This document shows, piece by piece, positions 27,269 to 39,318 of a stretch of 50,639 nucleotides of DNA. A model generated the notes under the pieces. The model ran no database searches and was not told the origin of the DNA. It worked only from the letters and a program-made list of their open reading frames with translations. The number at the start of each line of letters is the position of its first letter. The stretch's first letter is position 1. The DNA is taken from the IMG/VR virus record IMGVR_UViG_3300045999_000972, positions 1 to 50,639 of that record; one strand, given 5' to 3'. The stretch comes from a virus. Lineage: Duplodnaviria; Caudoviricetes. A program made the position numbers and the translations under genes.

Positions 27269-28926
27269 ACGCAACTAAATTTGTCCGTATGCCAACCAGC
27301 AAACAGATGCTGGCTATGGGTATTCCTGAACTGCCCGAAGCGGCTTTTGGTGGCGACCTGCCTCCGATGCAACGTAAGGCACTTGTCCAAGCTATGGGTA
27401 TTCGCCCACAAGGTGGCGGTGGCGGTGGTCTAAAAGCGGTGGTCGGCCTTGTTGCCGCTGTTGCGATTCCATTTGCTGCACCTGCGATTGTCGGTGCGAT
27501 TGCTTCTAGTACAGCGATTGCTGCTTCGATGCCGTTTGTTACTGCGGCTCTGAGTACTACGACTGGTGCTGTGATTGGCTCTGCGATTGTGGGTGCTGGT
27601 CTAGGTGCTGTGTCTGCTAAGGTTACAGGGCAAGACGTGGGCCGTGGCGCACTGTTTGGTGCAATCGGTGGTGGTATCGGTGGTTATTCACAAGCTGGCA
27701 GTATCACAGCCCAAGGACAGAACGTTGGTACTGGCGCTACTAGCCTTACTGCCGCAGGCACTCCTGCTCTACCAACAACCCCAACGGCAAACGCTGTTGT
27801 AACTAACGTGGGTTCTGGTACTGGCTACTGGTCTCCTGAAGTCGGGGCGTTTATTGACCCCACAACTGGAAGTAAAATTGCTGCCCAAAACATTGCTTAC
27901 GGCGGTACTGTTGACAGTGCACTAGCTAGTCAGTTAAGTGCTGGTTCTGTCAGTACTCAGGGTCTTGCCGATGCAATCAATGCGTCCGGCACATTGGCTG
28001 TTAACACCCCCGGTGCAATTGGCGGTAACGCTGCTGCATTTGGTGCTGGCGGCGGTGTCTACTATGACCCGACTAATGCTATTGCTGGCGGTGGCCCTGT
28101 TTACGCACAAGCTGGTTTGCAAGCTACTCCTGCAATGGAGCAAGCTGCTGCTAACGCTGCTGTGCGGTCAGGTCAGATGGTCAACGTAGCTGCAAAAGGA
28201 ACTACCCCTGCACAAACTATCGCCGCTCCTGCTGGCGGTGCTACTGCGGCAGGTGGTGCTACTGCTGCCGCTCCTACGACATTTAGTGAGGCTCTTAAAC
28301 AGAAATTTACTGACCCGCGTAACCAAGCAGACTTGTTCCTCCGTGCTGCTGGCCAGATTGCTGGCTCTACGATTGCTGGTGATGGCTTGTCTGATGAAGA
28401 AAAAGCTCTGCTCCAACAGCAAACGGCTGAACTTCGTCAGTTGCGTGAGACTAATCAAGAGTTGTTTAACCAGCGTTTAGAAGAAGCTCAGAACATGATT
28501 GGTGAGTCTAAGTACTTTGACCCGGCCTACTTCGGTATGCAAAGCCAACGTGCTGTTCAGACTGCTGGCTCTCGTGCGAAACGCGAAGCCCTTGGCAAGT
28601 TTGGTAACCAGCGTGCTGGCTTGCGCCGTGCTGAAGAACGCCGCTTTGACTTGGGTATTTCGACTGGTGGTCAGACTGCTTACCTCCAAGGTGCAGATGC
28701 TGCACAGCAAAACAGACTTCGTACTCAGAGTGCTGGCCTTAGCGTATTACCTACTTCGGGCAATGCTTCTTCGTTGCAGTACGGCTCTTACGTTGGTGGT
28801 TTGTACGATGCGGCAGACCGCCGTCGTCGTCAGGCTGCTGGTGACATCGGTGACCTATTCGGGACATTCACGGGTGGAGAAAAAGCATCTAGTACTGGTT
28901 TGACTTTAAACATCGGTCGCGGTTAA
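27265..28926 (+). CDS. Internal virion (ejection/pilot) protein
   Basis: Gly/Ala-rich hydrophobic N-terminal half, Gln-rich coiled C-terminal half. Confidence 0.7.
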   Translation: MNATKFVRMPTSKQMLAMGIPELPEAAFGGDLPPMQRKALVQAMGIRPQGGGGGGLKAVVGLVAAVAIPFAAPAIVGAIASSTAIAASMPFVTAALSTTTGAVIGSAIVGAGLGAVSAKVTGQDVGRGALFGAIGGGIGGYSQAGSITAQGQNVGTGATSLTAAGTPALPTTPTANAVVTNVGSGTGYWSPEVGAFIDPTTGSKIAAQNIAYGGTVDSALASQLSAGSVSTQGLADAINASGTLAVNTPGAIGGNAAAFGAGGGVYYDPTNAIAGGGPVYAQAGLQATPAMEQAAANAAVRSGQMVNVAAKGTTPAQTIAAPAGGATAAGGATAAAPTTFSEALKQKFTDPRNQADLFLRAAGQIAGSTIAGDGLSDEEKALLQQQTAELRQLRETNQELFNQRLEEAQNMIGESKYFDPAYFGMQSQRAVQTAGSRAKREALGKFGNQRAGLRRAEERRFDLGISTGGQTAYLQGADAAQQNRLRTQSAGLSVLPTSGNASSLQYGSYVGGLYDAADRRRRQAAGDIGDLFGTFTGGEKASSTGLTLNIGRG

Positions 28927-31056: not shown

Positions 31057-34000
31057 ATGGCGACTAAAGCCCCGCAGTCATTTGAAAATCCTCTTTACTC
31101 TGACTCTGGTGGCTCAGTTGCCAGTCAGATGAGTCCGTATACCTTCCTGAATCCTGCCTCCTCTACGGGGGCAGATGCGCTTCAGAAGGGTCTTGCCGAC
31201 ATCGCAACGATGGGTCAGACTGCACAGCGGTTAACGCAGTTTGAACTGCCGCAGGTCAAGCGTCCTCCTGCTATTGCGTACAGCCCATCACAGAAGAAGT
31301 TGTTTGTACAAGGTGTCACCTTTGACGAGGATGACTCCGATATGACTCTGCGTGCGGAGCAGTTGCTTGACCGCCCTTCGGTGGGTATGCCACAAGGTGG
31401 TGACTGGGTAACGCTTACGCCTCAGGCATATGGTCAGATTGCCAACACAATCCGCAACCCCGGTCTTGGTCGCCTTATGTCCAAGAACTTCGGTATTGGT
31501 GTTGACCAGTTGCAGTTGCTCGCTGGTCGTGGGCTTCAGCTTGCTGGTGCAGAACAAACTGGTCAGGCTATCGTTGACCGCCAAATGGAAGACCTGCGTA
31601 AGAACCTTCCGTTCCGTCGTGAATTCACTGAGATTGATTCCACCAAGGGTGCTATCGAGTGGCTGGCTGCAACGGTTGCCCAACAAGGCCCGAACATCCT
31701 TGAGTCCGTAGGTACTGCGGCTGCTGGTTTCTTTGCTGGTACTGCCGCAGGTGGCCCGTTGGCTGGTGCAGGTGGTGCACTCGCAGGCTTGGCAGGTAAA
31801 ACTGCCTTCAAACAATCTGTACTCGCTGCCCTGAAGAAACGTGCAGCAGGTGAAGCTCTTGACGCAACTGAGACTAAGTTGCTACGTGAAGCCGCAGGTA
31901 TTGCTGGCGCAACGATTTTAAGTGTGGGTCAGAACTACGCCACTGGTGCGGCTGACATCTATGGTGAGTTCCGTGAACAAGGTTCTGGTGCTGATGATAC
32001 CAATGCTCGTCTTGCCGCTCTGTCTGGCGCAGTCCCCTATGCCGTCCTCGAATCTGTCCCTGAGTTCATTCTCGCCTCCCGCTTGTTTGGTGCTGGCGGT
32101 CTGTCCGCACGAGGTGGCGCACGGAACTTACAAGATATACAAGGCAAGACTTTCCTCGGGACGCAAGGCTTACGTGGTACAGAACTGCTCAAGCGAGGAG
32201 CAAAAGGTGCAGTCGTTGGCGGTACATCTGAAGGTGTAACTGAACTAGGACAAGAGAGCTTGCTCGTTGGTATGACGGGTCAAGACTTTGCTGACCCTGA
32301 TGTACAGAAGCGACTCATCGAATCCTTTGCTGCTGGTTTTGGTGTCGGTGGAACGATTGGTGCTGGTGCGAACCTACGACGTGGCCCTATCGGTAAACAA
32401 CCTACCAACTTGTTGAACCCCGGGCAGACTACTGACCCAACACCTAGCGACTCTCGTGAGATTGCTCCTATGGGTGGCCCAAGCCCCGCTGGTGGTATGG
32501 GCGCACGCCCTGACTTTGTGGCTGGTGCTGAAGGTGTACGCCGCTCAACTCCGGGTGACCGCATCTACACAGGTGAAGTTCAGCCTAACCAGTTCGGTGG
32601 TGCACAAGGTGTTCTTGACCTCGGTGGTATCCCTGTGGCAGAAGCCAAGGCTCGCAGTATGCAGGGCAATGTGCAACCACAACGAGTATGGGATGTAACC
32701 ACTCAGTCCTTCCGTGATGTCACTCCTGAAGAACTAGCCGCTCAAGTTGGCCCACAGCAGCAATACACCGACCCTAACCAGTTGGCTTTGCAGTTTGCCC
32801 CTCCTGCTCCTAGCGGTGTTGGGTTTACTGACCAAGCTGCCCCTGTGTTAAACCCTGCTATGCAGCAGGCTATGAATCTGGCGCAGAGTCGTCAGGCTCA
32901 GGCACAAGCTCAGTCGGCTGCTCTTGCCCAGCGAGAGGCAGACCTCAATAAGTTGCAAGTGCAAGCGGAAGCGCAGCGCCAACTCGACATTGCTCAACAA
33001 GCGATGGACGCGGCCCGGGCACAGCAGCAACAGACACAACAACAACTTCCTACGAAACCGCTGCCCGTGCGTGCACCCCAGCAGTTGGAATTGTTCAGTC
33101 GTAAAGAAGCTCCACGTCCTTCGCGTGCCGAGGGTCTACGCCGTGGTGTTGGTACACAACTTCCTGAACCAACCACTCCCGTGTTGCCTGTTCAAGACTT
33201 GCGCCGCAGTGCTCAAGTTCCGATGTTCACGCAGCAAGGTCAGCCTTCTGTGGCCGCCCTCAAGAGTGCAGGCACACGACAACAAGTTGTCCCAACAGTG
33301 CAGCAAGGCGCTACCCAGATTGCTCCGACAGGTGCTCCTGTTACTGCGGTTACTTCTGAAGCAGCCAAGGGTGCGGCACTCAAGAAAGAAAAGTCTGGCA
33401 CTATCACCTTTGAAGACGGCTCTGTATATACAGGGCAGTTGAAGAAGGGCGAGCCTAACGGTCAGGGTACTTTGATTTACTCCGACACATCCACTTACAC
33501 TGGTCAGTTCAAGAACGGTAAGCCTCAGGGCACTGGTCGCTTTGAAGATGCTGATGGCACGGTGTTCGATGGTCAGTTCGATGATGGTGACTTTGTTCAA
33601 CCAGAAGGAGAAGCAGATGCCGTTCAAGAGCCAAGCCCAGCGGAAGTACCTGTACGCCAACGAACCAAAGGTGGCAGCGAAGTTCGCAAAGGAGACACCG
33701 AAGGGGGCAAAGCTCCCGCAAAAGGTCAAGCCCTCAAAGCCAAAGAAAAAGTAGCCACTGAACCTACCGAGCCAACTGAGCCTACTCCTCCTAAGGGTGG
33801 TAAGAAGACCCTGAAGAAAGAGCCGAAGAAGACTGAGGCGAAAGCTGAAGCCGCACCGAAAGCAGCGAAGTTGCAGAAAGGCCCGAGTGGTTTGGCTGCA
33901 ATGGTTGGTCAGCTTATGGCTGCAACAGAGCAAGGCGCTGTGGTTGAAAGTCAGCCTGCCAAACGTGGTGCGCCAGTAACCTCGGCTGAAACCTTAGAGG

Positions 34001-37000
34001 CTAATGAAGAACTTGACTTGGCTATTGAGACTGCTGAAACAACTAAGAACGCAGCCAAATATGCTGAGGCTCTGTTTGATATTGTGTCTGCCTATGCCTA
34101 TGGAACAGAACGCTCATACCTACTGAAGACATCCACAAAGTTCTTGACGGATGAAGGTGGTGTACCGAAGGGTGACTATGTAGCCGCCTTACGTGAAGTT
34201 GCGTTGGACGCAGACGCCATCAAACCAAATTCCCGTCTGTATGGTTTGCTGGCTGATGCTGGCTTGCTCAACGATGTGAACGTCATGGCGAATGTACGTG
34301 TGCCCGGTGCTAAGGCAACGCAAGAAGCTGTGGTTGGTGAGGTCGTTGGTGCGAACTCTGAGATTACTGCTGAGGAAAGTCTTGCCAACTTCATTGACTC
34401 CAATCCGCAGTGGCCTAACCGCAAGCAGTTGGTTGACAAGCTCAAGAAACTGTACGCCAAGATTGATGACGACACCTTTGCAGTTGGTAAGCGTGGGCGC
34501 ATCAAGGACTTCTTTGACGCTGATGGAAACCCGTTGGTGACCCAACCTGCTGGTACGTCTTACTTCATCCCCAACACTGTGGCTGAGGAGAAGACTACCA
34601 AGTCTGATTTCGTATCCAAGCATGAGTCTGCACGCAAAGAGTTGCGTGACCTAGAAGATACCGAAGACCAAACGACACTGGATGACCTTCAGTTCGACCC
34701 GTTCTATGACCGCAAGCCTAACAGTGATGACGACTGGCGTGCCTTCCGTTCGGATGGTAAACCTCTGACTCCTATGAAGGCTGGCCCACTGCGCTTGTTC
34801 GCAGCCCGTGTCATCTCCAAGTACGCTCGTAAACCACGAGTGGCTGTGTTCGCCAACATCCAAGACATGAAGCGTAGCAACCCTGCCCTGTTTGAAGCGG
34901 CAGCAAAGGCACGTAAGGATGGCGACATCGAAGCGGTTAATGCCGCAGGTATGGCTTGGGGTGACAACGTGGTTCTGTTTGCAGACCTCATCCACTCTGA
35001 AGAACATGCTCGCTTCATCATTGCTCACGAGACTCTTGGTCACGTTGGCTTCCGTGGTTTGTTCAGCAGCCAAGCACTCGACAAGATTCTGCGGTTCGTT
35101 GCAGATGCTGACCCTCATCTCACACATGAGGCAAACATCTATGCGAACGGTAAAGGAATCCCATTCCTCGAAGCAGTCGAGGAGGTGTTGGCAGACCGTG
35201 CTGCTGCCATCGACAATAACACAGTCCTTCGTTTTTGGAACTGGTTGAAAGACCAACTCAACAAACTAGGCTTCTCGTTCAACGAGGATGCAGCACGCTA
35301 CCTCATCGGTCTATCACGCAAGTACATCCGTCAAGGCGTTGGTCGTAGTGAAGTAAACACCTCTGGTCTGTTCAAAGAAATCAACGAGGCACTGGCTACT
35401 GAGCAGTCTGACATTGAGGTGTTGCGCTTTGCCCAGTCTGCTGCTCAAGGCTCTGCCTACTTCGCACAGAACTTTACAAACCGTGACTTTGCCATCTACG
35501 GTGGTATTTCCCGCTCTATCCAAGACATCGTTGGGGCTTCTCAGAAAGCCGCTGAACTGCGTAAGCAGGGTGTTGGTACATGGAGAAACATTGGTAACGT
35601 AGCTCAGAAAATTCTTGATGGTATCCAAACGCAAGACAACATGGCTCGTAAGTCCAAGGGTTACTTCAACATCTTTAGGTTGTTGCAAGACCAAGCGGCT
35701 CGTCAGACTGAACTCAAGACTCAGTATGCTGAGATAACTAAGATTGCCCACGAAGCTAAGTTCCTTGGTTTCGGTGATGGCTTAACGCCTGAGCAAAGTG
35801 TCCGTGCTGGTGAACTGATGGCGTATGCAACGCTGTTCAAGATGAACCAAGTCTCGGATACCAAGGTCGCACAGATGGACAACATCGTGTTCTATGACCC
35901 TGACAACCTTGAGCCTGTGCCTAAGGTAAACGTGGAAGGATACAACCAGTTGAAGCAGGTTGGTCGTATGACCCCTGAGGAATTCCGTAACGGCTTTAAG
36001 ATTCAACAAGGCACTGAAGAACGCCCAATGACTGCCGAGTACAAAGCGGAACTGGGTGCGCAGCGGGACAGAGAACTTGCCATCATGGAAGCAGGTAAGG
36101 ACAAAGAGCTTGCCCGTCTGCAAAAGAAACTGGCTGGGGCTGCCAACGAAGAAGCTAAGCTAGAGTTTGGACTGCGCATCAAACGTCTTGAGAACAAGTA
36201 CGCCAGCAACGTAGAGAGCACCAAGCGTTTTTATACCAAGCAGATGAACGAGAAGACCTATGAAGCTCCTCGTATGACAGACTCACTTGACTGGTTCAAA
36301 GATGTTGATGGTACTGTAATTGAGAACGACGACGGCACTGTGACCTACACTGGTAAGAGCCTTGAGTATCAGGTGTACTTGCAGTTCCATGACGCCATCT
36401 CCAAGTCTGCCGCTGACGTGCTGATTGGTAAGTACCTCGGTGCTATCCATGAACAGAAGCGAGCCGTGAGTACTGGTATTGGCGTAGCGTTTAACCAGTC
36501 GTTGACTGCACAGGAAACCAAGTTCATTGAGGATGTGGTTGAGCAATACGACCGTATGCGTCTGAAGGATTCAGGCTACAAGAACAACCGCTTTGTGATG
36601 AGCGAAGCTGCACAGGAAGATGCTGACGATTGGTTGAACTACAAGTTCGGTCGTGCGTTCTACACTGACCTTGCTTTGAACGACATCACTTCGATGATTG
36701 AAGGCTACACTGCCGCAGAGGTTGACACGCTTGTGCGTGGTATGCGTAAGAAGTTGCGTACCAAGGTTGACCCTGACCTCGATGATGTGAACAGCAGTTC
36801 GATTTGGGCACTGGTACATCGTGTTGAAGAACGTGCGATGTTTGCCGCCTCTATCAATGACGACCAGTTCTACGCCAAGCGAACCATCGCTGGCTCATAT
36901 GTTCCTCTCATCCGTGAAGGTGATTGGCAAGTTCGTATCCAAGCCTACAAGACTGTCAACGGACAGGATGTTCCTGTTAAGTTGCGTCAGGGTCAGCAAG

Positions 37001-39318
37001 ACTCGTTGTTCTATGGCAAGGCTGGTAATCAGAAAGATGCTATGGAACTCCAGTCAGAACTGGACAACATCTTTGTAGGCGAGCACGACATGCGTGACGC
37101 TGATGGCAATATGCAGACAGTTAAGTTGCGAGCCATCGTATCGGCAGCAGAGCAGACTCCTGCCCTTGTGGACATCCTCCACTATGACGAAGTGATGTAC
37201 TCACTCAGCCGCTTGGGTATCAACATTACCCCTGAGCAACGCACGACCTTGGTTCAGAAACTCACATCACAGAACACCCGTGCTCGTGCAAACCTGAAGC
37301 GTTCGGGTGTAGCAGGCTGGGATAAAGATGTTGTCAAGAGTGCGTCGGCTTATCTGGAGCAGCAAGCCTATGTTGCAGCCAACAAAGAATTCCGTCACCA
37401 GTATGACGAAGTGCTGGACAACCCATACAACTGGCAAGGTGACCCAACTCGTTTGGAAGAACTGCGTGTCAAGTGGGAAGGCAGCACTGGCGAGGCTAAA
37501 GAGATTGCAGCCCGTGAGTATTTCCAAGAGAAGTTCTACTACGACAACGCCGTTGAAACTATTGACGGTAAGCGGGTAGAGCGTGGCAACTGGTACAAAG
37601 AACGTGCCAAGTCTTTGCTCGACTGGAAAGAATCCACAGGTGACATCGTTCACGCTGATGACATTTGGACAAACAACGAGTGGTCTGTTGCGGCTCGTAC
37701 ATGGGCGGCTCTTGCCCAACTCGGTGGCTCTATCGCTACTGGTGTGACGCAGATGATTTCGTTGCCGACCAACTCATGGGCGTACCTCTCAGCTTTCAAT
37801 CCGAAGAATGGCTTTGGCCTCGGACTGGGTGCAGGTCGTGCCGCCACATTGTTGTTCGACTATGGTCGTAAAGCAGGTAGCTTCCGCTATGCCAACCTTG
37901 ACTACATCAAGGCACAGATTAAGGAACTCCAAGACAATGGTAAGGACAAGAACAAAGACGGCTTGACGTTTGCCGAACTGAACTTCCTCCAAACCATGAC
38001 TGAGGAACAACGCCTTGATGCGGCACAGTTCAATGCTTTGACTGGTACTAGCCGTGGTCGTAAGATTACTAGCACCCCAATTGCGCAAAAATTTGTTCAG
38101 GTATGGATGTTCCCGTTCAGCTACTCCGAGCAGTTCAACCGTCGAACAACGCTCCTAGCAGCCTATCGTGGTGAGTATGACCGCCAACGTGCATCCGGCT
38201 TAGACCACAACCAAGCTGACCTTGCCGCTCGTGAAGCAGCTTCTCGTGCAGTTGATGCTACCCAAGGTGACTACGCTCAGTACAACCGCCCTGCTTTCTT
38301 CCGTGGTGGTTTGCAGTCGTTCGTCTACATGTACAAGCAGTACCCAATCCTGATGGTTCAGTTGTTGAAAAACATGAACTACGAAGGTCGCATCATCATG
38401 CTCGGGTCGTTGCTCTTGCTGTCTGGTGTGCGTGGCATACCGGGTTCTGACGACATCTTGGACATTGTTGACGGCATCGCACAACGCCTTGGCTTGAAGG
38501 TCGGCTCGATTGAAAAAGAGTTCGCCCGTCTGACCCGTAGCGTATTCGGTGATGAGTTGGCAGCAGAGATTAACCCAATCATGATGCGTGGTTTGCTTGA
38601 CCACTTCACTGGTCTTTCATTCTCGAACCGTTTGGGTCTTGGCGACATCATCCCCGGCACTGGTCTGCTTAAGCCATCGGCTACCAAGCAGGAGATTCTG
38701 CGTGAGGTGGTTAACATTGCAGGTGCACCAACATCTTTCTTGGTGGGTACGTTTGAGTATGCGTTCAACACATTGCCTGCCGTAGCCACAGGTCGTAAGG
38801 GTCTAGGTGCTTTGCTGACTGATAGTCCTGCGACTGCCATCAAGAACTTGGGTACTGCCTTTAAGTTCTACGACACTGGTGCGATTGTTGACACCAAGGG
38901 ATATGTTGTAGCGCAGAACGCAACTGGCTGGGAAATACTTGGTAAGGCTCTCGGTTGGTATCCATCCCGTGCACAGGCACAGATGGACTGGTTGATGGCT
39001 GACTCACAGGAACAAGCCTACATGTCCATGATTAAGACTGAGGCTACCCGTCAGGCAGTCGCCGCTCGTTTGTCGGGTGACGCTGAAGCTGAGAAGGAAG
39101 TCAAAGAGTACATCAAAGACTGGAACGAATCCACCAAGGGTACACGCTTGGAGATTCGCAACTTCGACAAGGGATTGAACCAAGCCTTCCGTGAAGCCAA
39201 GAAGCCACTCGCATTGCGTAGCCTCAAGTCGTCATCGAAAGGTGGTAGGGCAGAAGCCAAGGAGTTGCTACGCATCTACGGCGTAGACGAGGAAACCCTT
39301 TCGGGCATCCCCGACTAA
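31057..39318 (+). CDS. Giant internal virion protein, polyvalent-protein type (MORN repeats, zincin-like motif, PLxRFG-like motif)
   Basis: 2753 aa, last late gene; MORN repeats about 33397-33600; HETLGH at 35026-35043; YVPLIREGDW at about 36898-36927. Confidence 0.8.
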   Translation: MATKAPQSFENPLYSDSGGSVASQMSPYTFLNPASSTGADALQKGLADIATMGQTAQRLTQFELPQVKRPPAIAYSPSQKKLFVQGVTFDEDDSDMTLRAEQLLDRPSVGMPQGGDWVTLTPQAYGQIANTIRNPGLGRLMSKNFGIGVDQLQLLAGRGLQLAGAEQTGQAIVDRQMEDLRKNLPFRREFTEIDSTKGAIEWLAATVAQQGPNILESVGTAAAGFFAGTAAGGPLAGAGGALAGLAGKTAFKQSVLAALKKRAAGEALDATETKLLREAAGIAGATILSVGQNYATGAADIYGEFREQGSGADDTNARLAALSGAVPYAVLESVPEFILASRLFGAGGLSARGGARNLQDIQGKTFLGTQGLRGTELLKRGAKGAVVGGTSEGVTELGQESLLVGMTGQDFADPDVQKRLIESFAAGFGVGGTIGAGANLRRGPIGKQPTNLLNPGQTTDPTPSDSREIAPMGGPSPAGGMGARPDFVAGAEGVRRSTPGDRIYTGEVQPNQFGGAQGVLDLGGIPVAEAKARSMQGNVQPQRVWDVTTQSFRDVTPEELAAQVGPQQQYTDPNQLALQFAPPAPSGVGFTDQAAPVLNPAMQQAMNLAQSRQAQAQAQSAALAQREADLNKLQVQAEAQRQLDIAQQAMDAARAQQQQTQQQLPTKPLPVRAPQQLELFSRKEAPRPSRAEGLRRGVGTQLPEPTTPVLPVQDLRRSAQVPMFTQQGQPSVAALKSAGTRQQVVPTVQQGATQIAPTGAPVTAVTSEAAKGAALKKEKSGTITFEDGSVYTGQLKKGEPNGQGTLIYSDTSTYTGQFKNGKPQGTGRFEDADGTVFDGQFDDGDFVQPEGEADAVQEPSPAEVPVRQRTKGGSEVRKGDTEGGKAPAKGQALKAKEKVATEPTEPTEPTPPKGGKKTLKKEPKKTEAKAEAAPKAAKLQKGPSGLAAMVGQLMAATEQGAVVESQPAKRGAPVTSAETLEANEELDLAIETAETTKNAAKYAEALFDIVSAYAYGTERSYLLKTSTKFLTDEGGVPKGDYVAALREVALDADAIKPNSRLYGLLADAGLLNDVNVMANVRVPGAKATQEAVVGEVVGANSEITAEESLANFIDSNPQWPNRKQLVDKLKKLYAKIDDDTFAVGKRGRIKDFFDADGNPLVTQPAGTSYFIPNTVAEEKTTKSDFVSKHESARKELRDLEDTEDQTTLDDLQFDPFYDRKPNSDDDWRAFRSDGKPLTPMKAGPLRLFAARVISKYARKPRVAVFANIQDMKRSNPALFEAAAKARKDGDIEAVNAAGMAWGDNVVLFADLIHSEEHARFIIAHETLGHVGFRGLFSSQALDKILRFVADADPHLTHEANIYANGKGIPFLEAVEEVLADRAAAIDNNTVLRFWNWLKDQLNKLGFSFNEDAARYLIGLSRKYIRQGVGRSEVNTSGLFKEINEALATEQSDIEVLRFAQSAAQGSAYFAQNFTNRDFAIYGGISRSIQDIVGASQKAAELRKQGVGTWRNIGNVAQKILDGIQTQDNMARKSKGYFNIFRLLQDQAARQTELKTQYAEITKIAHEAKFLGFGDGLTPEQSVRAGELMAYATLFKMNQVSDTKVAQMDNIVFYDPDNLEPVPKVNVEGYNQLKQVGRMTPEEFRNGFKIQQGTEERPMTAEYKAELGAQRDRELAIMEAGKDKELARLQKKLAGAANEEAKLEFGLRIKRLENKYASNVESTKRFYTKQMNEKTYEAPRMTDSLDWFKDVDGTVIENDDGTVTYTGKSLEYQVYLQFHDAISKSAADVLIGKYLGAIHEQKRAVSTGIGVAFNQSLTAQETKFIEDVVEQYDRMRLKDSGYKNNRFVMSEAAQEDADDWLNYKFGRAFYTDLALNDITSMIEGYTAAEVDTLVRGMRKKLRTKVDPDLDDVNSSSIWALVHRVEERAMFAASINDDQFYAKRTIAGSYVPLIREGDWQVRIQAYKTVNGQDVPVKLRQGQQDSLFYGKAGNQKDAMELQSELDNIFVGEHDMRDADGNMQTVKLRAIVSAAEQTPALVDILHYDEVMYSLSRLGINITPEQRTTLVQKLTSQNTRARANLKRSGVAGWDKDVVKSASAYLEQQAYVAANKEFRHQYDEVLDNPYNWQGDPTRLEELRVKWEGSTGEAKEIAAREYFQEKFYYDNAVETIDGKRVERGNWYKERAKSLLDWKESTGDIVHADDIWTNNEWSVAARTWAALAQLGGSIATGVTQMISLPTNSWAYLSAFNPKNGFGLGLGAGRAATLLFDYGRKAGSFRYANLDYIKAQIKELQDNGKDKNKDGLTFAELNFLQTMTEEQRLDAAQFNALTGTSRGRKITSTPIAQKFVQVWMFPFSYSEQFNRRTTLLAAYRGEYDRQRASGLDHNQADLAAREAASRAVDATQGDYAQYNRPAFFRGGLQSFVYMYKQYPILMVQLLKNMNYEGRIIMLGSLLLLSGVRGIPGSDDILDIVDGIAQRLGLKVGSIEKEFARLTRSVFGDELAAEINPIMMRGLLDHFTGLSFSNRLGLGDIIPGTGLLKPSATKQEILREVVNIAGAPTSFLVGTFEYAFNTLPAVATGRKGLGALLTDSPATAIKNLGTAFKFYDTGAIVDTKGYVVAQNATGWEILGKALGWYPSRAQAQMDWLMADSQEQAYMSMIKTEATRQAVAARLSGDAEAEKEVKEYIKDWNESTKGTRLEIRNFDKGLNQAFREAKKPLALRSLKSSSKGGRAEAKELLRIYGVDEETLSGIPD
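33617..33754 (+). CDS. Nested small basic protein (45 aa) in the +1 frame of the giant gene
   Basis: SD AGAAGGAG 6 nt before the ATG; MPFKSQAQRKYLYANEPKVAAKFAKETPKGAKLPQKVKPSKPKKK. Confidence 0.7.
   Translation: MPFKSQAQRKYLYANEPKVAAKFAKETPKGAKLPQKVKPSKPKKK

What the first reader, a model, noticed from the sequence alone, without database searches (positions are those of the whole stretch)
33603..33754. Complete small gene overprinted inside the giant virion-protein gene
Seen: a strong SD (AGAAGGAG, 33603-33610) precedes an ATG at 33617 in the +1 frame of the 2753-aa ORF. It encodes MPFKSQAQRKYLYANEPKVAAKFAKETPKGAKLPQKVKPSKPKKK (stop 33754). The host frame here is a low-complexity linker (EGEADAVQEPSPAEVPVRQRTKGGSEVRKGDTEG) directly after the MORN repeats. 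From recall, not from a search: MPFKS.AQR.YLYA..P.VA..FAKETPKG.KLP resembles a family of small stand-alone basic phage ORFs. Inference: a real gene was captured inside a disordered linker, or the linker is the by-product of an overprinted gene. This would co-express a basic DNA-binding peptide with the ejection protein, and gene callers would miss it.
Basis: partly seen in the sequence, partly recalled or inferred. Interest (0 to 1): 0.85.

Follow-up and report, generated by a model that had tools for sequence, protein, structure and literature searches.

The report
Small gene nested in giant gene
A complete 45-residue basic protein gene from a very large phage family sits in a shifted reading frame inside a giant virion-protein gene, in a slot where related phages carry this gene, a different small gene, or nothing.

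Summary
AGAAGGAG lies at 33603-33610 and an ATG at 33617. A 45-codon ORF ends at 33754, in the +1 frame of the 2753-aa ORF 31057-39318.

The peptide belongs to a very large family of small basic phage proteins. A profile search found 4360 cluster representatives at E<=1e-3. The module is nearly always the first ~40 residues of the protein.

In IMG/VR the gene is free-standing in most loci. It is nested, always in the +1 frame, in 30 of 85 loci found with the peptide.

Among relatives found through the giant protein alone, 67 loci cover the site. Of these, 41 hold this gene and 19 hold a second, unrelated small basic gene at the same place and frame. Five hold neither, and two hold a divergent copy.

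Between close relatives the exchanged DNA is exactly the small ORF.

Nested copies keep a start codon. Changes silent in the small frame outnumber changes silent in the host frame by 111 to 47. The mRNA around their starts is unusually unstructured. They contain no slippery heptamers.

Best reading: a pre-existing gene embedded in a linker and translated by internal initiation. Translation was not shown directly. Function is unknown; I infer a protein that works in the phage head and binds DNA.

The closest known analogues are Rz1-in-Rz and the out-of-frame HNH insertion called ShiLan. I rate it a new variant of a known kind.

The parts
31057..39318 (+). Giant 2753-aa virion-protein gene (the host frame). 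It has a Gly/Ala-rich N-terminal part, MORN repeats, a low-complexity linker and a C-terminal PLxRFG domain.
   Evidence: ORF list and translation. NCBIfam NF032893 PLxRFG at residues 2293-2712, E 2.6e-45, 155 bits against a cut-off of 100. phrog_11358 E 3.7e-40. It follows an internal-virion-protein gene (phrog_511) and an internal-virion/transglycosylase gene.
33382..33588 (+). MORN-repeat region of the giant protein (residues 776-844), immediately upstream of the nested gene.
   Evidence: Pfam PF02493 E 2.2e-9 with 2 stretches. phrog_7324 at residues 776-844.
33603..33610 (+). Shine-Dalgarno-like AGAAGGAG, 6 nt upstream of the internal ATG. In the host frame it encodes part of P-E-G-E.
   Evidence: Sequence. 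A GGAG/GAGG/AGGA core at -18..-4 occurs in 10 of 29 nested copies and 26 of 55 free copies. Background is 12-13% of 15-nt windows and 10-14% of other +1-frame ATGs in the same giant ORFs.
33617..33754 (+). Nested 45-codon gene in the +1 frame (P0001). The AlphaFold2 model shows two short helices (residues 6-15 and 17-26) and an extended Lys-rich tail.
   Evidence: family. (AlphaFold2, pLDDT 86.6). (the same nesting in related giants). (substitution asymmetry).
33616..33756 (+). Exchangeable cassette. It is the segment replaced by a different nested small gene in the closest relatives. The 5' junction is at G-ATG-CC and the 3' junction at the small ORF's stop.
   Evidence: Protein alignment of the giants. 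Nucleotide alignment of the window with L096, L087 and L091. Against L087, identity in 30-nt windows is 63-90% in the upstream flank and 77-97% in the downstream flank, mostly 83-97%. It is 7-53% across the cassette.
37933..39192 (+). PLxRFG domain of the giant protein.
   Evidence: NF032893. tblastn of the C-terminal 853 aa finds 42 phage records at 24-29% identity. Their annotations include PLxRFG domain protein, DarB-like antirestriction protein, structural protein and methylase.

Best explanation
Window 33617-33754 is a real protein-coding gene embedded out of frame (+1) in the linker of a giant PLxRFG internal-virion gene.

Shown here:
- It belongs to a very large family of small basic phage proteins.
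- The nesting, always in the +1 frame and 750-1160 residues from the giant's N-terminus, recurs in two lineages of giant genes.
- Purifying selection acts more strongly on the small frame than on the host frame.
- The site is a slot. Close relatives carry this gene, or a second unrelated small basic two-helix gene (consensus: MPLKKGSSNKVVSxNVKKIMDEYKAGGKLGxSPRPKSKAAALKQAVAASLSSAGRSKKx), or neither. The exchanged DNA is exactly the small ORF.

Inferred:
- Ribosomes initiate internally on the late mRNA of the giant gene, at the SD/ATG (or at an unstructured A-rich leader in AT-rich phages). They make a ~5 kDa protein separate from the giant protein.
- The giant's linker residues here are the by-product of reading a pre-existing gene in its -1 frame.
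- The small protein acts in the head or ejection module, most likely as a nucleic-acid-binding head-internal protein. I give this about 35%. The two families are interchangeable.
For: Family: 134 of 140 candidates at E<=0.01. 4360 representatives at E<=1e-3. phrog_1375 E 2.7e-4.

Nesting found with the peptide: 30 of 85 loci, all with the small frame at +1 of the host frame. 29 start with ATG and 1 with GTG.

Nesting found with the giant's N-terminal part alone: of 80 loci, 13 do not cover the site. Of the other 67, 41 hold the MPFKS gene (31 ATG, 10 GTG) and 19 hold the second gene (17 ATG, 2 GTG). Two hold a divergent MPFKS-like ORF, and 5 hold neither. All are in the +1 frame, 752-977 residues from the start of the giant frame.

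Second giant lineage: 23 of 32 loci are nested.

Selection: in 12 independent nearest pairs, 111 changes are silent in the small frame and non-silent in the host frame. 47 are the reverse. The opportunities are 1883 and 2453. Mean pairwise differences at small-frame codon positions 1/2/3 are 0.334/0.217/0.463, so the host's third position is the least variable.

Initiation signals: the SD core is enriched. The stretch -35..+25 around nested starts folds less stably than the average 60-nt window of the same giant ORF, with mean z +1.48 and 27 of 29 above 0. No sigma-70-like promoter lies in 32800-34200.

Dual-coding signatures: 0 of 29 nested copies hold an X_XXY_YYZ heptamer after codon 20, against 28 of 55 free copies. 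Nested copies are 11 GC points above their locus; free copies are 2 points above.

Cassette.

Mutual exclusion: the window has no copy of the second family. None of 5 genomes with the second cassette holds an MPFKS gene; 3 of those 5 are at least 96% complete.

Head-module link: in two syntenic GenBank phages the gene between the portal gene and a GroES-like gene, a 309-aa gene and the capsid gene differs. It is MPFKS-type in 023Pt_psg01 and second-family type in DSL-LC04.

Linkage to the giant gene: in L080 and L084 the small gene starts 1-2 nt after the giant's stop. In L068 it overlaps the giant's end by 17 nt.
Against: No call shows translation or the protein itself. No Ribo-seq, proteome or RNA data were examined.

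The window's own start region is only mildly unstructured (z 0.83).

An SD core is absent from 19 of 29 nested copies, mostly in AT-rich phages.

The peptide-selected sample is biased towards intact copies. The giant-selected sample corrects this, but its loci are related to one another, so the counts and the Wilcoxon p value are not independent trials.

The substitution test ignores transition/transversion bias.

Five of 67 giants lack any cassette, so the nested gene is dispensable for the giant protein.

Function: no Pfam family matched. No structural match was found. Neighbours of free-standing copies are diverse. P-RSP2 carries its copy about 7 kb into the genome among small genes, not in an evident head module.

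Homology between the two giant lineages was not shown (hhalign probability 12.6%). A single origin of the nesting is therefore unproven.
Confidence: 0.85

Rival explanations
1. Silent relic. A small gene was once captured between two genes that fused. It is no longer translated, and its apparent conservation comes from constraint on the giant's linker or from recent common ancestry.
For: No direct evidence of translation exists. 5 of 67 giants do without any cassette. 19 of 29 nested copies lack an SD core.
Against: Host-frame constraint predicts most variation at the host's third codon position, but that position varies least. Changes silent in the small frame outnumber the reverse 111 to 47, against opportunities of 1883 to 2453. 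A start codon is kept in 30 of 30 and in 60 of 60 nested copies, across peptide identities down to about 47%. Start regions are unstructured. For L006, L007 and L008 the nested segment is the only part of the giant detectably similar to the window's giant.
Confidence: 0.05
2. Selfish insertion. The cassette is a mobile element of the ShiLan type: an out-of-frame gene that its host reads through. It spreads on its own account and serves no phage function.
For: Close relatives differ by presence, absence or exchange of the cassette, with sharp junctions at the ORF ends. Cassette type is decoupled from flank similarity: downstream of the cassette the window is closer to L087, which has the other cassette, than to L096, which has the same one. 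A published precedent exists for an out-of-frame HNH insertion in a phage methylase (PMC11855218; abstract and outline read).
Against: The products are 45-60 aa two-helix proteins with no nuclease or recombinase match. Both families are mostly ordinary free-standing genes (55 of 85 and 73 of 80 loci). Both are strongly conserved. In syntenic phages they occupy a fixed place in the head module. Exchange by homologous recombination between conserved flanks is sufficient to explain the pattern.
Confidence: 0.07
3. Frameshift product. The small frame is reached by programmed ribosomal frameshifting, not by initiation. This would give either the giant's N-terminal part with a basic tail, or an MPFKS-tagged C-terminal part.
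For: The family module is nearly always an N-terminal module on proteins of 45-575 aa, so an MPFKS-tagged C-terminal part would fit the family's architecture. The tails are Lys-rich.
Against: 0 of 29 nested copies hold an X_XXY_YYZ heptamer in the small frame after codon 20, against 28 of 55 free copies. ATG or GTG is conserved exactly at family position 1. An SD or an unstructured leader precedes it.
Confidence: 0.03

Closest known systems
Rz1 embedded in Rz (spanin genes of lambda and many phages).
   Same: A complete small gene lies in the +1 frame inside a larger late gene. Related phages show all three arrangements. Here they are embedded (30 of 85 loci), overlapping the 3' end by 17 nt (L068), and immediately downstream (L080, L084).
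   Different: Here the host is a 2200-3860-aa virion protein, not a lysis protein. The embedded protein is basic and soluble-looking, with no lipoprotein signal. The embedded gene family is far wider than the host gene family. The slot accepts two unrelated genes. No interaction between the two products has been shown.
ShiLan-type out-of-frame HNH endonuclease insertions in phage methylase genes (PMC11855218; abstract and outline read).
   Same: The host gene reads an inserted segment through without stops. The segment encodes a complete protein in another frame, whose stop lies at the end of the insertion. Close relatives differ in whether they carry it.
   Different: The nested product here is a 45-aa non-enzymatic basic protein with no HNH or other nuclease signature. 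It is a member of a mostly free-standing family. I found no sign of homing.
PHROG phrog_1375 (function unknown). Pfam DUF3008 (PF11450) is the nearest named family.
   Same: phrog_1375 matches P0001 residues 3-35 at E 2.7e-4, and matches 7 of 10 long family members. The ESM Atlas puts a DUF3008 cluster nearest among named clusters, score 0.86.
   Different: The Pfam model itself does not match: 0 hits at E<=1 for P0001 and none for 30 members at E<=10. An Atlas score of 0.86 is below the level that the tool treats as more than a lead.
Large polyvalent or DarB-like PLxRFG virion proteins (F116-like Pseudomonas phages, vB_PalP_Y7).
   Same: The giant host gene carries the PLxRFG domain (NF032893, 155 bits). 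It sits after the internal-virion-protein genes.
   Different: GenBank relatives are only 24-29% identical over the C-terminal part. The only GenBank record seen with the nested gene is MW202828.1. Its giant lacks a PLxRFG match.

Membership tests
MPFKS small basic phage protein family (unnamed; alignment A2) | Significant sequence match over the whole ~40-residue module | tested here: met
   phmmer E down to 5.4e-18. A hmmsearch with the A2 profile scores the window ORF 87.3 bits. A2 contains P0001, so that score is partly circular; one search is not.
MPFKS small basic phage protein family (unnamed; alignment A2) | Module begins at the initiator Met (family position 1 is M, followed by PFKS) | tested here: met
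   M1, P2, F3, K4 and S5 are invariant in the 30 sequences of A2. In one search the match begins at residue 1 or 2 in most of the 150 listed proteins. The window ORF starts MPFKS.
MPFKS small basic phage protein family (unnamed; alignment A2) | Two short helices followed by a basic tail | tested here: met
   AlphaFold2 with A2: pLDDT 86.6, helices at 6-15 and 17-26, extended tail. This is a prediction only.
PHROG phrog_1375 | HMM match | tested here: met
   E 2.7e-4, 22.3 bits, residues 3-35 against profile positions 17-49 of 70. PHROGs has no curated cut-off, so the match is weak.
Pfam DUF3008 (PF11450) | Match to the Pfam model at or above the gathering score | tested here: not met
   No hit at E<=1 for P0001. 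No hit at E<=10 for 30 members. The only link is an Atlas feature score of 0.86.
Out-of-frame embedded gene (Rz1-in-Rz type architecture) | Whole ORF lies inside a larger gene on the same strand in another frame | tested here: met
Out-of-frame embedded gene (Rz1-in-Rz type architecture) | Own translation start signals | tested here: met
   SD AGAAGGAG with a 6-nt spacer. SD enrichment and low mRNA structure across nested copies. These are sequence signals only.
Out-of-frame embedded gene (Rz1-in-Rz type architecture) | Both products are made and work together | not testable with these tools
   No expression or interaction data. No complex prediction was run.
ShiLan-type read-through insertion element | Host frame stays open through the insertion, and close relatives differ in carrying it | tested here: met
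ShiLan-type read-through insertion element | Encodes a homing endonuclease | tested here: not met
   No Pfam, NCBIfam or structural match to any nuclease. The protein is 45 aa.
PLxRFG domain proteins (NCBIfam NF032893), for the giant host gene | Model match above the curated cut-off | tested here: met
   155.1 bits against a cut-off of 100, residues 2293-2712.
Pfam DUF6496 (PF20106), for the alternative cassette in relatives | Match at or above the gathering score | tested here: not met
   1 of 4 peptides matched, at 17.6 bits against a cut-off of 24, E 0.0052. The other 3 had no hit.

The most novel reading that the evidence does not exclude
The linker of these giant ejection-protein genes is a dedicated dual-coding docking site. 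Phages plug pre-existing small head-module genes into it and swap them by recombination. The small basic protein is then made from the same late mRNA as the giant protein and is loaded and ejected with it, as a two-part DNA-delivery device. On this reading, the part of the giant protein that overlaps the cassette arose from the shifted frame of an older gene. That reverses the usual direction of overprinting.
Probability: 0.2. Interest if true: 0.85.

Novelty: new variant of a known kind. Interest (0 to 1): 0.78.

Why it matters
Out-of-frame embedded genes are textbook rarities in phages, and annotation pipelines forbid them. This one has four unusual properties:
- It is conserved across more than a hundred uncultivated phage contigs and two lineages of giant genes.
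- It belongs to a family with thousands of members that has no Pfam model and no literature I could find.
- Its site behaves as a slot with interchangeable contents.
- The direction of overprinting appears reversed: the old gene is the small one, and the new reading is a stretch of the giant protein.

Practical consequences:
- Gene callers miss this gene when it is nested. They also miss it in several GenBank phages where it stands alone.
- The nested segment is the best-conserved part of otherwise fast-evolving giant genes. It could mislead homology-based comparison of those proteins.
- The finding gives a clean natural system for studying dual-coding constraints. Nested copies avoid slippery runs, have raised GC, and encode an acidic or polar host-frame reading.

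The function of two very common small phage proteins is open. The finding links both to the head and ejection module.

Tried and rejected
Chance ORF: rejected by homology.

Pfam DUF3008 membership: I recalled it, then tested it. The model does not match. Only an Atlas lead at 0.86 remains.

PDB sequence search with A2: the top hits, designed beta-propellers named Cake and Bagel, come from many repeats of 4.5 bits each over a 19-residue motif. I rejected them as spurious.

Foldseek against PDB: nothing at E<=0.001.

Frameshift fusion: rejected; 0 of 29 nested copies hold a slippery heptamer.

Internal promoter: none found by the sigma-70 scan in 32800-34200. The scan covers only one promoter type.

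Remnants of a nested copy inside giants whose small gene lies downstream (L080, L084, L068): none found.

Homology between the N-terminal parts of the two giant lineages: hhalign probability 12.6%, so not shown. MW202828.1's giant has no PLxRFG match.

Idea that the many 4-8 kb contigs carrying the second family are microviruses: Phage_F (PF02305) matched 0 of 5. However, the control genomes did not ring either, so the search is uninformative. CheckV completeness of 2-8% shows these contigs are fragments.

Conserved neighbours of free-standing MPFKS copies: diverse, with no universal neighbour. The upstream 1130-aa gene of L174 gave only partial, uninformative hits.

Megablast of the giant gene against GenBank phages: no match.

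Literature:
- 'MPFKS' occurs in 7 papers. Six were listed. From their titles, five are unrelated to the family. I read the passage in the sixth, the phage paper, and the match is an unrelated C-terminus. I did not see the seventh paper.
- 'PLxRFG' occurs in 5 papers. Four were listed, and none of those titles or abstract starts concerns a nested gene.
- 'DUF6496' and 'DUF3008' occur in 0 papers.
- Two broader searches on overlapping genes in phages gave only the ShiLan paper as a close analogue. Other listings were seen as titles and abstract starts only.
- Supplementary files were not consulted.

Not run: complex prediction, sequencing-run search and read laying. I had no specific partner domain to test, and RNA reads cannot show which frame is translated.
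Full report
**1. The observation**

The sequence is as described. AGAAGGAG lies at 33603-33610, followed by six bases and ATG at 33617. The stop TAG is at 33752-33754. The product is the 45-residue P0001.

The ORF is in the +1 frame of the 2753-codon ORF 31057-39318. That ORF carries MORN repeats just upstream (residues 776-844) and a C-terminal PLxRFG domain (NF032893, 155 bits against a cut-off of 100).

The window is a whole IMG/VR virus record of 50,639 bases, estimated 92% complete, with one copy of the small gene. Its large genes are:
- a T7-type portal or adaptor;
- a tail fibre;
- an internal virion protein;
- an internal-virion/transglycosylase protein;
- the giant gene;
- on the other strand, primase/helicase, helicase and DNA polymerase.

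The giant gene is therefore the last gene of a podovirus-like structural block, in the position of an ejection protein.

**2. Is it a gene?**

An open alternative frame is not evidence by itself here, because several others overlap the giant gene. Homology is the evidence.
- phmmer found 134 called proteins of 24-79 aa at E<=0.01 among 140 candidates.
- A profile of 30 of them (A2) found 4360 cluster representatives at E<=1e-3 and 864 at E<=1e-10 among 1.84 billion proteins.
- In nearly all listed hits the module occupies residues 1 to about 40.

About half of the 150 listed proteins are small (45-100 aa). The rest carry diverse C-terminal extensions of up to 575 aa. Examples:
- a VRR-NUC domain (P0125, precomputed PF08774);
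- DUF5661 (P0199 and P0247 above the cut-off);
- a P-loop region below the cut-off (P0131).

No Pfam model matches the module. phrog_1375 matches weakly. The nearest named Atlas cluster is DUF3008 at 0.86, which is only a lead.

AlphaFold2 with A2 gives two short helices and an extended basic tail (pLDDT 86.6). No structural neighbour was found in the PDB.

**3. Free-standing and nested copies**

tblastn against GenBank phages found free-standing copies in three phages: Prochlorococcus phage P-RSP2, Synechococcus phage S-CBS2 and phage C75C1. All three lie in unannotated gaps. A fourth copy lies inside the 3860-aa CDS of MW202828.1, again in the +1 frame and not annotated.

Combining the best 80 loci with the four GenBank loci and the window gives 85 loci.
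- 30 of the 85 are nested in a long frame on the same strand.
- 29 of those frames exceed 1000 aa; one is 396 aa.
- In all 30, the small frame is +1 of the host frame.
- 29 start with ATG and 1 with GTG.

Three further loci have a homologous giant gene immediately upstream of the small gene. In two the giant's stop lies 1-2 nt before the small ATG. In one the two genes overlap by 17 nt.

**4. A sample not chosen by the peptide**

I searched IMG/VR with the N-terminal part of the giant protein only (A6). Of 174 pattern matches, 107 were confirmed and the best 80 kept. Scoring them with profiles of both small families gave:
- 13 loci that end before the site;
- 41 loci with the MPFKS gene nested;
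- 19 loci with a different nested ORF of 57-61 codons;
- 2 loci with a divergent MPFKS-like ORF (E about 2e-5);
- 5 loci with neither.

All 60 clear cases are in the +1 frame, 752-977 residues from the start of the giant frame, and all begin with ATG or GTG.

A similar search for the second, AT-rich lineage of giants (A9) gave 23 nested MPFKS genes in 32 loci. Six of the nine loci without a hit clearly cover the site. No copy of the second family appeared in this lineage.

With the nested segment masked, the giants from the peptide search fall into two blastp-connected groups of 18 and 11. Every HSP joins N-terminal part to N-terminal part or C-terminal part to C-terminal part (134 and 162, plus 6 spanning). 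Within each group the site is therefore syntenic. Profile comparison did not show the two groups to be homologous.

**5. The slot**

The closest relatives of the window are 80-92% identical in the N-terminal part of the giant protein. They differ in what the site holds. L090, L096 and L097 hold the window's gene. L087-L089 and L091-L095 hold the other gene.

In the nucleotide alignment, similarity between the window and L087 changes sharply at the ORF boundaries.
- Upstream it is 63-90% per 30-nt window, up to G-ATG-CC.
- Across the small ORF it falls to 7-53%.
- Just after the stop it returns to 77-97%.

Downstream of the cassette the window is closer to L087 than to L096, which has the same cassette. 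The cassette therefore moves independently of its flanks. L102 and L118 have a short unrelated stretch at the site.

The second family is also a widespread free-standing phage gene. 346 of 600 matches were confirmed in IMG/VR. Of the best 80, 73 are free and 7 nested, again in the +1 frame. It is predicted to form two helices with a basic tail (pLDDT 77.8). It reaches DUF6496 only below threshold.

The two families exclude each other in the genomes examined.

**6. Selection and expression signals**

Mean pairwise nucleotide differences at small-frame codon positions 1, 2 and 3 are:

| Copies | Position 1 | Position 2 | Position 3 |
|---|---|---|---|
| Nested | 0.334 | 0.217 | 0.463 |
| Free | 0.337 | 0.241 | 0.637 |

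The host's third position is the small frame's second position, and it is the least variable.

In 12 independent nearest pairs, 111 changes are silent in the small frame but not in the host frame, and 47 are the reverse. The opportunities are 1883 and 2453.

Further signals:
- An SD core is present in 10 of 29 nested and 26 of 55 free copies, against 10-14% in controls.
- Copies without an SD core have A-rich leaders.
- The 60 nt around nested starts fold less stably than the average window of the same giant ORF (mean z +1.48, 27 of 29 positive). These loci are related, so the p value overstates independence.
- Nested copies contain no slippery heptamers (0 of 29, against 28 of 55 free copies).
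- Nested copies are richer in GC than free copies relative to their genomes. I read both features as adaptations to dual coding.

**7. Mechanism and function**

The best-supported mechanism is internal initiation on the mRNA of the giant gene. It yields a separate small protein. The giant protein reads the same DNA as a low-complexity linker.

The small family is far broader than the giant genes. For L006-L008 the nested segment is the only detectable similarity to the window's giant. The small gene is therefore the older reading and the linker the derived one.

Function is inferred only. Both families are small, basic and helical.

In two syntenic GenBank phages the gene between the portal gene and a GroES-like gene, a 309-aa gene and the capsid gene differs. 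It is MPFKS-type in 023Pt_psg01 and second-family type in DSL-LC04. In giant-bearing phages the gene is embedded in, or abuts, the presumed ejection protein gene.

I therefore favour, at about 35%, a nucleic-acid-binding protein of the head interior or of DNA packaging or delivery. Against this, neighbours of other free copies are diverse, and the P-RSP2 copy lies among small genes about 7 kb into that genome.

**8. Comparison with what is known**

The architecture parallels Rz1 in Rz, including the embedded, overlapped and separated variants (recalled, not read here). It also parallels the ShiLan out-of-frame HNH insertion (PMC11855218; abstract and outline read).

It differs in four ways:
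- the kind of host gene;
- the non-enzymatic nested product;
- a nested family that is much wider than its host gene family;
- the alternative contents of the slot.

Searches for the family's motif and for the two DUF names found no relevant paper. I rate it a new variant of a known kind.

Noticed in passing
L001 1501-1623 (HQ332139.1), L004 1501-1611 (GU936714.1), L003 1501-1605 (OQ984151.1): Free-standing members of the MPFKS family lie in unannotated gaps of three GenBank phages: P-RSP2, S-CBS2 and C75C1. These records miss a conserved gene.
   Followed up: partly
L004 1187-1935 and L003 1566-1754: In S-CBS2 and C75C1 the MPFKS gene sits in a run of other very basic small ORFs. These are S-CBS2 gp045 and gp046, and a 55-aa Lys-rich ORF in C75C1 that overlaps an annotated 62-aa gene in another frame. 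They may form a cluster of small basic proteins.
   Followed up: no
window 32924-33442 (+) and 33136-33933 (-): Long alternative-frame ORFs (172 aa in the +1 frame, 265 aa antisense) overlap the giant gene near the nested gene. I found no homology evidence for them and did not test them further. Similar long +1 ORFs occur in relatives and look like by-products of composition.
   Followed up: partly
P0125, P0131, P0199, P0231, P0247, P0188: The MPFKS module is the extreme N-terminus of many longer proteins with unrelated C-terminal parts. These include VRR-NUC, a P-loop region, DUF5661 with glycine-zipper stretches, and long low-complexity regions. It behaves like a portable N-terminal tag.
   Followed up: partly
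L272, L275-L278 and L002 1501-1632: One branch of nested copies in the AT-rich giants has an inserted stretch with two conserved cysteines between the two helices. These copies score only E 1e-5 to 6e-4 against the family profile.
   Followed up: no
H7-H13, Streptomyces phages near 27334-27414: Weak tblastn matches (52% identity over 27 residues, E 0.1-0.6) straddle the boundary of two annotated genes (47 and 48) in seven Streptomyces scabiei phages. This may be another unannotated or overlapping copy.
   Followed up: no
L036 6607-6933 and 6 other loci: A 90-108-aa protein recurs near free-standing MPFKS genes in 7 of 55 loci. It matches part of phrog_220, 'minor head protein and DNA pilot' (E 1.1e-8).
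   Followed up: no
L279 4145-5593 and L280 2643-4046: The conserved 309-aa head-module gene next to a GroES-like gene is annotated 'kinesin-like protein' in 023Pt_psg01 and two Planktothrix phage records. This looks like an annotation artefact. Its position suggests a scaffold or head protein.
   Followed up: no
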